From Eledone cirrhosa (lineage: Eukaryota): a DNA stretch of 64,000 nucleotides. The stretch lies in NCBI GenBank assembly GCA_964016885.1, contig OZ024740.1, forward strand, positions 173,848,001 to 173,912,000. Direction: 5' to 3'. The notes beneath the pieces are model-generated. The model was not told where the DNA came from and did not search any database. It worked only from the letters and a program-made list of their open reading frames with translations. Made by a program: the position numbers and the translations under genes. Shown here piece by piece: positions 1 to 45,620 of this stretch; position 1 is the first letter of the stretch, and the number at the start of each line of letters is the position of its first letter.

Positions 1-417
1 CACACCACATGCACAACAAATAACAAAAAAAGTAACAAAACGTCCAACATACCCCCAGCAAAACTATAACGATAATCCCAGAAACCATAGACAAAACTAA
101 AACCCTACTAACAAAAACCAAAGATCCCCGAACACAAGGCAGGACCTGATCCGCAGATCACAACCCACACAAAACCTATTCCCAAACCGTAGACCCCTGC
201 CCACACAGAGCCTGTTCCAAAACCATAGATCCCAACCCACACAAAGGAACCAAATCTACAACCCGGACTATCAACAAACCGAACCTCAATACGTCCGAAA
301 CTTCTATACAAGACCACACAACAACAGGGGAAATACCATTAGATATAATAATACCAATGAAAAAACATTCCAGAAAAATCATTTTTTAGACCAAGGCTAC
401 AGGACTCACGACACCCG

Positions 418-2687
418 GTGGCACAAACCGATTTTGAAAAACCGAAAATAATTAACATTTCAAATACAAACCTCTCAGCCCAACAAGTAAAAATTCTCTC
501 CAAAGGTCTGAAATTCACACCAACACCACAATATCCTAACCCCAACGAGATAAATGACGATATCTCACACTTCTGTAGAAAATTACGTCTCACAGAGAAA
601 TTCTTTGACAAGGAGAATAACGACGAATCAATTGTACGGAATAAAAGCAGCTACAACCCAACAAAAGGTAGAAACAGAGTTCTGGACAAATTTTGTGACC
701 ACATAGCTACCTTCCCATACCATGAACTACCGCAACCTAAACCCAAACCCAACACAAGTCGAAGGGAATGGGAGATTATCCATGAACTAAAAAACAATCC
801 GGACATTGTAATTAAGGAAGCGGACAAGGGAAGTACTGTTGTCATTATGGAGGCTGAAAAATATAAAAATTCTATGTTCTCTCTCTTACAAAATGCTAAT
901 TACTATGAAAGAGTAAAAAACTACCAGCAATCAAAAATAATGACCAAATTAAACACACTGATTTATCGATACCAGGAAGACCTAACTAAAAAGGAACGCG
1001 ATTATTTAACAAATTTTGAATACAAAACCAGCAACCTTTACGGACTTCCGAAGATCCACAAATGTAAAATAATCAACGATGCCTGTAAACAATCCACCTC
1101 AGCCTGCGTGAACACACAATACCCCACAGACCTTAAATTAAGACCAATTGTAGCGGGCCCACAATGTGAAACACACAGATTGAGCAACTTTATAGACATA
1201 CTACTGAAACCAATACTGAAACACATACCAAGCCTTGTAAGAGACGATCTGGACCTCTTAAACCACCTCCCCAAACATGTCAACAACGACACTATTATTG
1301 TGTCTTTCGATGTAGTGAATCTCTACACGACGATCCCACACCAATACAGACTAGAAGCAATAGGATTCTGGCTAGAGAAATATCCCAATGAGATACCTGA
1401 CAGAATAGAAAAAAGCTTCATCACCGAGGGATTAAAATTCATCCTACAGAACAACTTTTTTGATTTCGATGGCAATACTTACAAGCAAATATCGGGGACT
1501 GCGATGGGCACAAAAGCCGCTCCAACTTATGCCAACTTAGTCATGGCATACTTAGAAGTCCAGATATATGAACAGTCCAAATCAAAATACGGATTGAACT
1601 TCCACAAATATTTATCAGAGAATTGGAAACGCTACTTGGATGATTGCCTCATTCTTTGGTCCCACACACTCGACCAACTGAAGGATTTCAAAAACTTAAT
1701 AAACGGCATCAATAACCACATCCAATTCACAATGGAATACAGCCAAGATCAACTCCCATTTCTGGACATCTTAATCACAAAAAAGACACAAATATCGAAA
1801 CTGACATACACTACAAACCAACAGATTCCAAACAATATCTGCTATTCACCTCCAACCATCCAAAGCACACGAAGACGAACATTCCTTTTAACCTAGCAAG
1901 AAGAATTTGCACAATTGTCTCCAATTATGAAACGCGAAATAAAAGACTTCAAGAATTAAAGGAAATTCTACTTGAGAGAGAGTACCCACTATTACTAATA
2001 AATAATGGAATAGAAAGGGCTAAAGCAATAGGCATTGATGAATTACGGAAACAGAAACAAATTCAAGGTACGTCCAATATTCTATCATATATCTCAACAC
2101 ACAACCCAAGAAATGCGGAAGCTTACAACACTATTCACAATAACATCCCACTACTAAAACAAAACCCAAGAATGAAAAAAGCCCTTGAAACACACAAAAT
2201 AATCAAAAGCAAAAGACAACCAAAATCACTGAAAACATTACTCACCAATGCCAAATTACCTACCACAAACCCACAACCAAGTATCAAAAAATGTGGTCGC
2301 TCTAATTGTGGAACCTGCACTCACCTCATTGAAGGCAACACATATACATTTAAATCAGGACAAAATTTTACTGTAAAAAATCACTTCACTTGCTCATCAA
2401 AAAATCTAATTTATGCCATTAAATGTAAAGGATGCAATGAAGATTATATAGGACAAACTAAACTCACACTCAGAAACAGAATGACAGTTCATCGCCAACA
2501 ATTACGAGATCCAACCACGAGACAGATACCACTAAGTGCATATCTAGACATTTGCGCAAGTAATAAGACACCCAAATTCCAAGTCTTCCCATTTTATCTT
2601 TGCGCTAACAATACAACAGAACAAATGCGAATAAATAAGGAAAATATGTTTATTCAAAAATATAGACCAACATTAAATAAGGTTTAA
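418..2687 (+). pseudogene. PLE RT-GIY-YIG polyprotein with one frameshift
   Basis: ORF 418-1896 carries the RT. At the A-run ~1779-1784 the protein continues in the frame of ORF 2172-2687 (DTNIETDIHYKPTDSKQYL...NIPFNLARRI...), open through the GIY-YIG domain. The homopolymer indel may be a sequencing error. Confidence 0.85.
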
Positions 2688-3727
2688 TATACATTATGTC
2701 AACACCACAATATGACATACACACACACACATAACACCTTCTACTTTAGAAAATAAAAACCCGAACTAAATAAACCTTAAACATACGTTTGCACTGGCAA
2801 TACAACAGCAAACACGAAAAAGTCAGGAAAATATGTTCATTCAAAAATATTCCTACTAAAGGAATCATTTTCCTACACACACACATACACATACACACAA
2901 TATATATATATATATATATATATTCTCTTCATCTTAACATGCTAACCATACTCCCACACACATAACACCCATACACACACATAACAACCCCCACACCTAC
3001 AACACCCTCCCCATTTCTACTAATAGAACCACTTTCCTACACACATATATATATACACACACACAAAATATATATTCTCTCTATCTAACATACTCGCACA
3101 CACACACATAACACCCATATACACACACACACAACTCCCTCCCCCATCTCTACTAATAGAATCATCTTCCAATACACACATACACACACACACACACATA
3201 TATATACACACACACAAGCACACAAATAAACACATATCTTCAGTCTCAATAGAAAATCTGAACTCTGACACCTGAACTCTGACAGCTGGCCATATTCACT
3301 GAACCAGAACATTTCTCCCAGTCCCTTTTCCCTTGACCACTATCTCTCCATTGTAATAACATTCACTATAAAGACTACAGAATAGTTTTCCAAATAAGGG
3401 CGCAAAAATGTAATGAAAACTTGTTCACGTGACAGCCAAATTTCATTTATAACCAACCAAAAAAAAGCCTTCGTGAGCCTCATTTTTTCAAGTAAAAAGA
3501 AATTCAAACACTCATATATGAAAAAACAACCTGTGACAACCCCCCCCTCTCTTATTTGAAGAACTATTGTAACGCGAACTGGCGCGAAATTTATTATAAT
3601 TATTGACAAACCAATCAAATTACTTCTCGAAAAACCTGGTTTTCGAGCCACTTTTTCCATATAAAACAAGTAACATTTAGAGACCAACCAGATGTGAGAA
3701 AAACCACAGACCCTCCATCTCAACTCA

Positions 3728-3765
3728 CCTTTTGAAAAGCAGAAGAACTGCGAAACCGGTAAAGG
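3728..3765 (+). ncRNA. Type I minimal hammerhead ribozyme, U3-A8 core variant
   Basis: cctt-TTGAAAA-gcag aagaa ctgc-GAAA-ccgg-TA-aagg: stems I and II pair fully, stem III palindromic. Confidence 0.8.
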
Positions 3766-44100: not shown

Positions 44101-44448
44101 TGAAAGTGGCGAAAATGTGCAGACGACTCGCTGGCTGGATCTTGAGGACTTTCCGGACAAGAGACCGAGACACCATGTTGACACTATGGCCTAAGCCGCC
44201 TGGACTATTGCTCCCAGTTGTGGTCACCCCATAGTGTCAAACTAACCACGGAGCTTGAGGCAATCCAGCGAAGCTACACCAAGAGCATTGCCACGATGAA
44301 GGAGATAAGCTACTGGGAGAGGCTAAAAGAACTGAACCTCGACTCCCTGGAACGAAGACGGGAGAGATACGCAGTAATCTACATGTGGAAAATCCTGGAG
44401 GGACTAGCACCAAACTTTGGCATTGAGAGCTGGACCAACCGTCGAACA
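41196..44448 (+). mobile_element. CR1-group (CR1/L2/Crack/Daphne-like) non-LTR retrotransposon, disrupted
   Basis: ORF1 end with CCCH finger; APE endonuclease NVRGL, LTETHL, GGVALY, YRPP, GDFN, LD, SDHN; RT QHGFR..RSC, YLDFAKVFDKVDH, GVPQG.VLGPLLF, YADG (mutated YADD). Confidence 0.9.
41700..44448 (+). pseudogene. LINE ORF2 (APE + RT) broken into several frames
   Basis: Pieces 41403-42707, 42658-42990, 43027-43368, 43389-44234 and 44218-44448 are consecutive parts of one ORF2. Confidence 0.85.
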
Positions 44449-44689
44449 TACATATATATATGTATATATATATATATATATATATATATATATATATATA
44501 TATATATATATATATATATATATGTATATGTATATATATATATGTATATATATATATGTATATATATATATATATATATATATATATATATATATATATA
44601 TATATCTATATATATATATATATATAAATATATATATATATATATATATATGTTTGTATATATATATATATATATATATATGTATATTA

Positions 44690-45620
44690 GTAAAAAGGAA
44701 AAGAAAATGTTGATAAATTTTTCCCAGTGAAAAATAGTTTAATTAGGAATAAGTATAAATTAGTAATAAGTATTAGTTAGTATTCAGTTTTAGTTTTAAG
44801 TTTTTACCGGTTGCGCATTTCTTATGCTTTTCAAAAATAATTTTGAGATAGAGTGCTCGTGATTTTTTGCTCTGATCTGATCAGTTTTGGAAATTCTTCC
44901 TGTTTTATGTGAAAAAAGTGGCTCCAGAGGTATTAAGATTTGGTTGGTTGTTGAATGTCACGTGAATAAGCACTCTAAATTTCGCGCCAATTCGTGTTGC
45001 AAAAATTCTTGTAGTCAAAATAATTTTGATTGGTCGGTAGAAGTCACGTGAATGTTTAAATTGATTTTAGCGCGAACTGGTTTCGCGCCAAATGTAGGTT
45101 TGTCGAAGAGTGTCCTTTTCCGCTTGATTGAGTTGCAGTCATGTTGAGAGGTCAACAGTTCAGGTGTCTATTAAGACAAACATGTGTGTGTGTGTGTGTG
45201 TGTGTGTGTATGTCTGTCTGTATGTTAGTGTGCGCGTGTGCATGCACACGCGCACACTAACATACAGACAGACATACACACACACACACTTCTCCGTTTA
45301 AGACAAGAGCCGAAAAATATGTTTCAACATGTTAAAATAACCCCCCCCCCACACACACACACGTACACACACACGTACACACACATTCCTACTGACCGAT
45401 TCATTTCCATTATCACAACAATGAACCACTTTGCTACACACACACACACACACACACACACACACACACACACACACACACACACACACCTATTTGTCTA
45501 TTAAGACACTTGAACTGTTGACCTCTCAACATGACTGCAACTCAATCAAGCGGAAAAGGACACTCTTCGACAAACCTACATTTGGCGCGAAACCAGCTCG
45601 CGCTAAAATCAATTTGAAAC
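44690..45620 (-). mobile_element. Non-coding Neptune-like PLE 3' end with a fold-back duplication
   Basis: 44700-45100 is the reverse complement of ~14340-14790; 45056-45180 is inverted at 45493-45617; palindrome centred near 45242. Confidence 0.7.
44802..44837 (-). ncRNA. Hammerhead-like motif with variant core (UUGAAAA...GCAA)
   Basis: Minus strand ttt-TTGAAAA-gcat aagaa atgc-GCAA-ccgg-TA-aaa. Confidence 0.55.

What the first reader, a model, noticed from the sequence alone, without database searches (positions are those of the whole stretch)
1..45620. 45-kb (TA)n-hosted nest of PLEs carrying ~19 hammerhead ribozymes in about ten structural families
Seen: nearly every unique island between TA tracts is a PLE piece or a short non-coding unit with a type I hammerhead fold (3728, 4021, 6978, 10546, 12364, 14643, 17708, 18329-, 20720, 22014-, 23175-, 25497, 32156, 32373-, 33843, 36602-, 36699, 37459, 44802-). 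Known: PLE pLTRs carry hammerheads and some PLE clades target microsatellites. Inference: several unrelated PLE lineages and their non-autonomous derivatives share one TA-targeting niche here. The density stops abruptly near 45.6 kb.
Basis: partly seen in the sequence, partly recalled or inferred. Interest (0 to 1): 0.85.

Follow-up and report, generated by a model that had tools for sequence, protein, structure and literature searches.

The report
Penelope hammerhead ribozymes crowding TA microsatellites
This stretch of a cephalopod-type genome is a pile of cut-off tail ends of Penelope-like jumping genes sitting in TA repeats, each tail carrying a fold predicted to be a self-cutting RNA; the pile is ordinary for this genome, which likely holds about 400,000 such folds, including tens of thousands of copies with altered catalytic letters that would let one test whether the self-cutting is needed at all.

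Summary
Observation largely confirmed; the locus is not special. All 19 listed sites fold as type I hammerheads: 11 pass a strict descriptor (12 hits against 0.37 in shuffles), 6 carry one deviation, 2 fit by eye. Twelve are 3' ends of autonomous PLEs (Hydra clade; Neptune/Nematis type), three are non-coding tandem units, four have no parent found. A 5-kb LINE is a large non-PLE exception. Random 10-kb stretches give 1.55 strict hits each against 2.6 here, so this is a typical TA-rich patch that runs about 38 kb further left and stops before a hemocyanin gene. TA targeting and hammerheads of octopus PLEs are in print (Craig 2021). Not found in my searches: the load (about 4x10^5 extrapolated; about 115,000 counted by exact pattern in five family groups) and core changes fixed in high-copy autonomous lineages: A13C 11,072 copies beside 13,431 canonical sister copies, U4A 23,297, U4C 1,738. 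Cleavage is untested; most likely it is weak, dimer- or protein-assisted and partly dispensable.

The parts
1..3902 (+). Neptune/Nematis-type PLE (family A): RT and GIY-YIG ORF 361-2687 broken by a frameshift, then 3' pLTR
   Evidence: RVT_1 and GIY-YIG Pfam hits; DKG motif, CX4CxxC linker
3728..3765 (+). Hammerhead fold A: U3-A8 core, palindromic ACCGGU stem III
   Evidence: strict descriptor; double-hammerhead dimer is the cofold minimum; 13,431 exact copies
4020..4089 (+). Hammerhead fold B (parent ORF not found)
   Evidence: B-type pattern 60,320 genome-wide, control 3
4645..6038 (-). Truncated copy of the family M PLE; weak hammerhead candidate 4900-4937
   Evidence: 95-98% identical to 34,896-36,239
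6343..7230 (+). Pieces of non-coding tandem unit C' with hammerhead fold 6978-7016 and inverted 3' fragments
7276..10663 (+). Neptune/Nematis-type PLE (family D), ORF 7275-9210 with a frameshift; minimal hammerhead candidate 10544-10575 (2-bp stem I)
10802..10934 (+).
11747..12557 (+). Family B 3' end with hammerhead fold 12363-12427
12725..13068 (+). Two 3' halves of family O hammerhead (Hydra PLE; U4A core in full copies)
13772..14800 (+). Family A' 3' pLTR; hammerhead fold 14643-14679 with U3-A8 and A13C (GCAA)
17104..17922 (+). Family E 3' end; hammerhead fold 17708-17862 with a 10-bp stem I and a stem II region of about 115 nt
   Evidence: parent not found (blank)
18132..19100 (-). Second, diverged family E copy, tail to tail with the first; hammerhead fold 18329-18481
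20328..20990 (+). Partial tandem of the 466-bp non-coding unit C (retrozyme-like); hammerhead fold 20720-20764
   Evidence: Rfam HH9 38.6 bits, below gathering
21981..24236 (-). Hydra PLE family F: endonuclease end 23618-24184, low-complexity 3' UTR with two hammerhead copies, 23175-23232 (G17) and 22014-22073
24500..25590 (+). Family F 3' end; hammerhead fold 25497-25556
26322..27880 (+). Broken Hydra PLE, sister of family F (82% DNA identity)
28020..28068 (+). 3' half of a U3-A8 hammerhead family with a GUC site (inverted twin at 25871-25919)
28394..32271 (+). 5'-truncated Hydra PLE, ORF 28447 to about 30075 (in-frame stop at 29880), 2-kb AT-rich 3' UTR, hammerhead fold 32155-32221
32323..33540 (-). 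Young Hydra PLE family G 3' end with 5' inversion; hammerhead fold 32379-32484 with U4C
33558..34131 (+). Non-coding tandem unit H (about 513 bp); doubtful hammerhead fold 33846-33921
34472..36236 (+). Family M PLE (CX4CxxC linker, divergent RT), ORF to 35718; weak hammerhead candidate 35980-36017
36439..36896 (.). Head-to-head inverted pair of family I 3' ends (Neptune/Nematis type); hammerhead folds 36602-36636 (-) and 36699-36733 (+)
37400..39130 (+). Hydra PLE family J: upstream pLTR with hammerhead fold 37463-37574, followed by a broken RT ORF (RWK and DKT motifs)
39312..44462 (+). AP-endonuclease/RT LINE with an inverted 5' duplication; not a PLE, no hammerhead
   Evidence: Exo_endo_phos and RVT_1
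44682..45621 (-). Family A'' 3' pLTR with 5' inversion; hammerhead fold 44802-44837 with A13C; right end of the patch
50547..62436 (-). Molluscan hemocyanin exons; TA-free and hammerhead-free flank

Best explanation
The stretch is a heap of 3' ends of Penelope-like retrotransposons (Hydra clade and Neptune/Nematis type) plus three non-coding tandem units, nearly all ending at a (TA)n tract and carrying a fold predicted to be a minimal type I hammerhead; it is an ordinary TA-rich patch of a genome that likely holds about 400,000 such folds, whose cleavage is likely weak, dimer- or protein-assisted and in some lineages likely dispensable. Inferred steps: the GIY-YIG endonuclease nicks (TA)n; reverse transcription starts at one of two fixed sites some 50-300 nt downstream of the hammerhead and often stops early or flips strand, so even short copies keep the fold; each insertion leaves TA at its side and many elements carry TA/TG-rich UTRs, which would seed more targets and build nests. 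Shown: fixed 3' ends at TA, two alternative 3' ends, inversions, partial tandems, links to ORFs, copy numbers, and core substitutions fixed in whole lineages.
For: Folds exceed chance (12 vs 0.37; 93 vs 11-16 in 600 kb sampled). With only core and palindromic stem III required, 18 of 31 non-redundant hits have stem I of 3 bp or more (permutation mean 3.1, max 9) and 18 of 31 stem II (mean 6.0, max 14); stem I pairs 4-6, not required, are Watson-Crick in 29 of 51 cells across 17 families (permutation mean 15.5, max 26). 3' ends at TA: 29 of 29 A' copies (19 short, 10 after a 39-nt tail), 14 of 14 B (one degenerate tract), 16 of 19 J with the other 3 running into the ORF start; TA within 350 nt downstream of 50 of 72 family hits against 568 of 2000 random positions in the same stretches. 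Same-strand ORF upstream: A' 10 of 29, G 10 of 29, J 10 of 19, A'' 8 of 19, F 3 of 14, O 2 of 12; an unbroken 730-codon RT-endonuclease frame precedes an A13C fold in L358. Fixed variants: A13C 11,072 copies, other letters in that backbone 153; U4A 23,297 vs 262; U4C 1,738 vs 415. Hammerhead mutants did not block insertion in vitro for an anole PLE (Frangieh 2024).
Against: No cleavage or RNA data here. Targeting of pre-existing TA is not separated from TA added at insertion. Rfam gives almost no support. The covariation tool on a MAFFT alignment of seven family A/A' copies found no two-sided change (gaps displaced the stems). Among the three A13C subfamilies the motif differs in 4 of 31 columns against 62 of 237 in the flanks (p = 0.12), which neither shows nor excludes selection on the fold. 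49 of 60 sampled stretches came from the four largest contigs, so the extrapolation may be biased.
Confidence: 0.72

Rival explanations
1. The variant cores (A13C with U3-A8, U4A, U4C) are working ribozymes, rescued by dimer formation or by the element's own protein, and cleavage is required in every lineage.
For: All three variants keep stems I-III and the palindromic or paired stem III; A versus A' shows G-C to U-A and C-G to U-A swaps by direct reading; U4C keeps enough activity in a viroid (Perreault 2011); the anole PLE hammerhead cleaves only with protein.
Against: The youngest A13C subfamily folds by minimum energy into a different hairpin that removes stem II; motif conservation among A13C subfamilies is not significant (p = 0.12); family F carries a duplicated copy with G17 in 679 places, so broken folds do ride along.
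Confidence: 0.3
2. PLE integration makes or lengthens the (TA)n tracts (slippage or repeat addition by the telomerase-related RT), so the microsatellites are a product as much as a target.
For: 3' ends abut TA almost always while several simple 5' junctions do not; 91 of 394 compound TA tracts have a hammerhead pointing into them within 350 nt (lower bound); TA tracts cover 3.7% of sampled DNA.
Against: Whole insertion blocks have TA on both sides in 13 of 19 C and 15 of 19 H loci, including simple non-inverted copies; Craig 2021 reads the same pattern as target preference.
Confidence: 0.2
3. This locus is a special hotspot or a selected ribozyme cluster acting on the neighbouring hemocyanin gene.
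For: Density is 1.7 times the sampled mean and drops to zero over the gene.
Against: 10 of 60 sampled stretches are as dense or denser and 12 of 60 have no TA tract at all; copies are 95-100% identical to dispersed copies; orientations are mixed.
Confidence: 0.04
4. The folds are chance matches in AT-rich repeats or assembly artefacts.
For: Two of 19 fail both descriptors; about 13 of 93 sampled strict hits are expected by chance.
Against: Shuffle and permutation controls; reversed-pattern controls 0-3 against 10^3-10^4 hits; contigs of run X1 show no other letter at the A13C position at 10% or more (X1 may be the assembly's source).
Confidence: 0.02

Closest known systems
Hydra-clade PLEs, e.g. 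Hydra-1_Obim of Octopus bimaculoides (Craig et al. 2021, PMC8557442)
   Same: RWK and DKT motifs, CxCX5C linker, no CCHH, C-terminal GIY-YIG, hammerhead near the 3' end, (TA)n insertion; family F has the same ACCA-N-UGGU stem III.
   Different: At least five families here, long low-complexity 3' UTRs, stem II regions up to about 85 nt, a duplicated hammerhead in F, and fixed U4C (G) and U4A (O) cores.
Neptune/Nematis PLEs with minimal hammerheads (Cervera and de la Pena 2014, PMC4209133; Craig 2021)
   Same: CX2-5CxxC linker, CCHH endonuclease, partial tandems, 5' inversions, 30-40 bp tail, palindromic stem III, U3-A8 core as in Schistosoma Cercyon.
   Different: One lineage adds A13C, fixed across three subfamilies; counts per genome are far above the 2,000-9,000 minimal hammerheads reported there.
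Non-LTR retrozymes (Cervera and de la Pena 2020, PMC7229834; Li et al. 2026, 10.64898/2026.07.22.740005)
   Same: ORF-less, AT-rich, strongly self-paired tandem units with one type I hammerhead each (unit C 466 bp, z = -10.2, arrays up to about 19 units).
   Different: Units are somewhat longer than the 170-400 nt RNAs described, show PLE-type inversions, tails and TA flanks, and RNA circles were not tested.
Natural hammerhead core variants (Perreault et al. 2011, PMC3088659)
   Same: U3-A8 and U4C are described; U10.1-U11.1 mismatches, as at 6978 and 36699, are tolerated.
   Different: A13C and U4A are not named in the section read; here they are majority forms of families with over 10,000 copies.

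Membership tests
Type I hammerhead ribozyme | Core C3/U3-U4-G5-A6-N7-G8/A8-A9, G12-A13-A14-A15.1, U16.1-H17 | tested here: met
   15 of 19 sites; not met at 14643 and 44802 (A13C), 32379 (U4C), 23175 (G17)
Type I hammerhead ribozyme | Stems I, II and III around the core, stem I open | tested here: met
   17 of 19 by descriptor, 2 by eye
Type I hammerhead ribozyme | Covariation of stems | tested here: met
   across families; within family A/A' the tool count was uninformative
Type I hammerhead ribozyme | Rfam gathering score | tested here: not met
   best HH9 38.6 of 52 bits; none
Type I hammerhead ribozyme | Site-specific self-cleavage | not testable with these tools
   needs a bench assay or end-mapping RNA reads
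Hydra-clade PLE (families F, G, J, O, 28394 element) | RWK motif, DKT in place of DKG | tested here: met
   RWKAFHF and KADKTSN in 37793-38281; other window copies lack this 5' part
Hydra-clade PLE (families F, G, J, O, 28394 element) | CxCX5C linker, C-terminal GIY-YIG without CCHH | tested here: met
   alignment A2 rows for F, G and the 28394 element; J and O by tblastn likeness only
Hydra-clade PLE (families F, G, J, O, 28394 element) | RT phylogeny with reference elements | not tested
   no reference sequences in the script machine
Neptune or Nematis PLE (families A, A', D, I, M) | DKG motif, CX2-5CxxC linker, CCHH GIY-YIG at the C-terminus | tested here: met
   the window's A copy has Y for the last H, a sister copy has H (L364); DKG region missing in I and M pieces
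Neptune or Nematis PLE (families A, A', D, I, M) | Which of the two clades | not tested
   needs an RT tree with references
EN+ PLE insertion structure | 5' truncation, partial tandem, 5' inversion, tail at one end | tested here: met
Naiad PLE | N-terminal endonuclease, DKA motif, no canonical hammerhead | tested here: not met
   every endonuclease seen is C-terminal
Non-LTR retrozyme (units C, C', H) | ORF-less tandem units each with a type I hammerhead | tested here: met
   C: 466-bp period, no linked ORF in 19 loci; H: about 513-bp period, doubtful fold; C' tandem or inverted copies
Non-LTR retrozyme (units C, C', H) | Unit-length linear and circular RNA | not testable with these tools
   no RNA holder listed

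The most novel reading that the evidence does not exclude
This genome carries the largest hammerhead load yet counted (about 4x10^5) and holds a natural knock-out experiment: an autonomous PLE lineage with a dead A13C core has made as many copies (11,072) as its canonical sister (13,431), and a Hydra lineage with U4A over 23,000, so PLE retrotransposition in vivo does not need hammerhead cleavage; or else these are new protein-rescued catalytic cores.
Probability: 0.4. Interest if true: 0.7.

Novelty: new variant of a known kind. Interest (0 to 1): 0.48.

Why it matters
The role of PLE hammerheads is an open question (Craig 2021: 'still unclear'; Frangieh 2024: mutants insert normally in vitro). 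Sister lineages in one genome that differ at a core position and each reach over 10,000 copies make it testable with four short transcripts. The load also shows that Rfam-based annotation misses a major repeat class (235 hammerhead loci were reported for giant squid; a 2026 octopus repeat annotation does not hold the word ribozyme). The nest itself needs no special explanation.

Tried and rejected
Rfam scans: swamped by miRNA-like hits on microsatellites and inversion hairpins; not useful for minimal hammerheads. Genome search with family E: blank, not even the window, so uninformative. Three 8-kb stretches around family B copies (L366-L368): no linked ORF, copies truncated; parent unresolved. 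Automatic flank classing failed for families I, G and A'' because the references held TA or stopped short; only C and H are used. Pair count on alignment A1: no covariation, gap placement shifted the stems. Sequencing runs: no RNA holder listed. Runs X4-X6 cover the A' stretch with 1-9 near-identical contigs at low depth; not taken as evidence for other species. Relaxed hit at 47,945-48,070 and strict hit at 28,620-28,739 rejected as probable chance. Earlier-findings look-ups: nothing. Lunse et al. 2017 (PMC5785218) is not held; it describes PLE hammerhead variants and may already list A13C or U4A. Searches for 'A13C' (0 papers) and 'U4A' (2 unrelated papers) cover only the held library. Idea that 23175 (G17) marks a lineage without a working fold: rejected, since an A17 copy lies 1.1-1.5 kb downstream in the window and in 3 of 6 loci by scan.

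
Full report
Setting. The window is G000:C1:173,848,001-173,912,000 of a 2,996-Mb assembly. From 50.5 to 62.4 kb the minus strand carries exons of a molluscan hemocyanin (Pfam Tyrosinase and Haemocyan_bet_s; best solved relatives are multi-unit hemocyanins). With the likeness of its PLEs to octopus elements of Craig 2021 I infer a cephalopod, probably an octopod. All 159 TA tracts of 12 bases or more lie between 2,900 and 44,681.

Are the hammerheads there? A type I descriptor (core with C3-G8 or U3-A8, stems I and II of 3 or more pairs, stem III of 2 or more, H17) finds 12 hits in 1-45,620 against a mean of 0.37 (max 2) in 30 island-wise dinucleotide shuffles, and 0 in the rest of the window. 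Allowing one deviation recovers 17 of 19 (18 hits against 0-6 in 20 shuffles). The last two fit by eye: 10544-10575 has a 2-bp stem I but the extra base after A9, G10.1-C11.1 and a palindromic ACGU, all hallmarks listed by Cervera and de la Pena 2014; 33846-33921 has a 5-bp stem I, G10.1-C11.1 and a 2-bp stem III with a 16-nt loop, conserved in the 19 copies printed, and stays doubtful. Dimer cofolding gives the double-hammerhead as the minimum for A, C and E, part of it for G and I, and not for A', D, H, J or M. Non-circular tests on 80 stretches outside the window: with only core and a palindromic stem III required, 18 of 31 non-redundant hits have stem I of 3 or more pairs (permutation mean 3.1, max 9 of 2000) and 18 of 31 stem II (mean 6.0, max 14); across 17 families seen in two or more stretches all four Watson-Crick types occur at stem I pairs 1-4, and the unrequired pairs 4-6 are Watson-Crick in 29 of 51 cells (mean 15.5, max 26 of 5000). 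Against this: Rfam gave one sub-threshold HH9 hit among the 150 rows listed and none in a focused scan, and the pair counter found no two-sided change on a seven-row MAFFT alignment of A and A'.

What carries them? Genome searches with each 3' end and tblastn of the upstream flank show parents. Hydra clade (RWK, DKT, CxCX5C, no CCHH; Craig 2021 section read; alignment): G (10 of 29 loci with a same-strand endonuclease upstream), J (10 of 19; in the window it is the upstream pLTR of the ORF at 37,793), F (3 of 14, 88-94% identical to the ORF end at 23,618-24,184), the element 28,394-32,271, and O (2 of 12). Neptune/Nematis type (CX4CxxC linker, CCHH): A and D directly after their ORFs in the window, A' (10 of 29), A'' (8 of 19), I (L369-L371) and M. 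Units C (466 bp; arrays up to about 19 units; fold z = -10.2), H (about 513 bp) and C' have no linked ORF and are retrozyme-like. B (two window copies) and E (two) have no parent found. So 12 of 19 are ends of autonomous elements, 3 are non-autonomous, 4 open. A 5.1-kb AP-endonuclease LINE is a non-PLE exception.

TA link. Copies elsewhere end at fixed points followed by TA: A' 29 of 29 (10 after a 39-nt tail), B 14 of 14, J 16 of 19, G 15 of 29 at a short end while 14 run on. Whole blocks have TA on both sides in 13 of 19 C and 15 of 19 H loci. In the sampled stretches TA lies within 350 nt downstream of 50 of 72 family hits, upstream of 31 of 72, and downstream of 568 of 2000 random positions in the same stretches. 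Two alternative 3' ends, inversions and partial tandems match Craig 2021 and the two internal start sites shown in vitro by Frangieh 2024. TA preference is in print for nearly all Hydra families, including Hydra-1_Obim with its hammerhead, and for three octopus Naiads.

Is the locus special? No. Sixty evenly spaced 10-kb stretches (49 from the four largest contigs) give 93 strict hits, 1.55 each (bootstrap 1.0-2.15), against 11-16 in four shuffles; the region has 2.6 per 10 kb; 10 of 60 stretches have 4 or more; 12 of 60 have no TA tract; hits correlate with TA content (Spearman 0.46). The patch starts near C1:173,809,600, about 38 kb left of the window, and hits resume right of the window. 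Net density of about 130 per Mb extrapolates to about 4x10^5 (range 2.3-5.8x10^5). Exact patterns, with reversed controls of 0-3, count 60,320 B-type, 13,431 A (59), 11,072 A' (57), 23,297 O (88), 3,947 plus 679 F (85, 84) and 1,738 plus 415 G (61, 62), about 115,000 in five groups; the O, G and F patterns cover only half the motif. Counts in the papers read: axolotl 126,247, coral over 6,000, mussel about 5,000, Xenopus about 9,000 and coelacanth about 4,000 minimal motifs, giant squid 235 by Rfam. Schistosoma may reach a similar density per Mb (recalled, not checked).

Fixed core changes. In the A' lineage position 13 is C in 11,072 copies and another letter in 153, that is mutation level. 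It spans three subfamilies 10-17% apart in the 3' region, with ORF DNA about 90% alike between A' and A'' and 66% to family A; L358 holds an unbroken 730-codon RT-endonuclease frame, cut at its 5' end, upstream of such a fold, and the closest copies are 97-100% identical. Contigs of run X1 show no other letter there at 10% or more. The motif differs in 4 of 31 columns against 62 of 237 flank columns among these subfamilies (p = 0.12), and the youngest subfamily prefers another hairpin. U4A marks 23,297 O copies against 262; U4C 1,738 G copies against 415 with U4, with many copies 99-100% identical. U3-A8 and U4C are known; A13C and U4A were not found in searches, but Lunse et al. 2017 could not be read. 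That changes at A13 or U4 cut activity strongly in minimal hammerheads is recalled from classical mutagenesis; Perreault 2011 states it in general for core mutations and for U4C.

Mechanism and verdict. Shown: folds, parents, fixed TA-abutting ends, counts, variants. Inferred: endonuclease nicking at (TA)n, internal priming downstream of the fold, nest growth by self-seeded targets, dimer- or protein-assisted cleavage, and relaxed need for cleavage in some lineages. What lifts it above routine is the genome-wide load and the sister lineages with and without a canonical core.

Papers, as seen: Craig 2021 (passages, sections 11 and 12, supplement searches and part 2 of 59); Cervera and de la Pena 2014 (parts 1-2 of 4); Frangieh 2024 (parts 1-2 of 4); Li 2026 preprint (parts 1-2 of 5; its supplements are closed); Perreault 2011 (passages, section 8; figure 5 and its supplements not seen); Cervera and de la Pena 2020, PMC6962438, PMC13282606, PMC7761336, PMC6765202 (passages only).

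Noticed in passing
window 39,312-44,462: AP-endonuclease/RT LINE with a CCCH-like motif upstream of the endonuclease and an inverted duplication (39,312-39,651 against 41,225-41,563); its 3' part stops at a TA tract.
   Followed up: partly
window 36,439-36,896: Near-perfect 458-bp palindrome of family I in which the TA tract sits between the two 5' ends; in other loci this inversion junction has no TA tract. A third stub follows at 36,921.
   Followed up: partly
window 13,291-13,368; 21,724-21,815; 24,185-24,236; 33,388-33,542; 33,561-33,685; 45,198-45,287: Inversion-junction hairpins; several score as false miRNA precursors in Rfam.
   Followed up: no
window 21,981-24,236 (-); L374, L375, L377: Family F carries two hammerhead copies 1.1-1.5 kb apart, the upstream one with G at the cleavage site (679 genomic copies).
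   Followed up: yes
window 15,500-17,100; 19,100-20,100; 22,200-23,100; 24,500-25,400: Much of the TG/CA/TA low-complexity sequence is internal 3' UTR shared by copies of F and probably E, not target DNA.
   Followed up: partly
L089: Tandem array of a 556-bp unit with nine hammerhead folds (ACUAAUUAGU stem III), a further retrozyme-like family absent from the window.
   Followed up: no
L054:about 6570 (-): A second family with U4C and the ACAAUUGU stem III but a different stem II from family G.
   Followed up: no
G000:C1:375,634,846-375,643,976: About 19 tandem copies of unit C preceded by an inverted truncated copy.
   Followed up: partly
window 50,547-62,436 (-): Hemocyanin gene body free of TA tracts and hammerheads; a 67-bp repeat at 47,653 and 63,048 and a 125-bp inverted repeat at 46,660/48,017.
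   Followed up: no
L367:1105-1938: Open frame that reads like a multicopper-oxidase or coagulation-factor-type exon (recalled likeness, not tested) among hammerhead-bearing insertions, which would place these in an intron.
   Followed up: no
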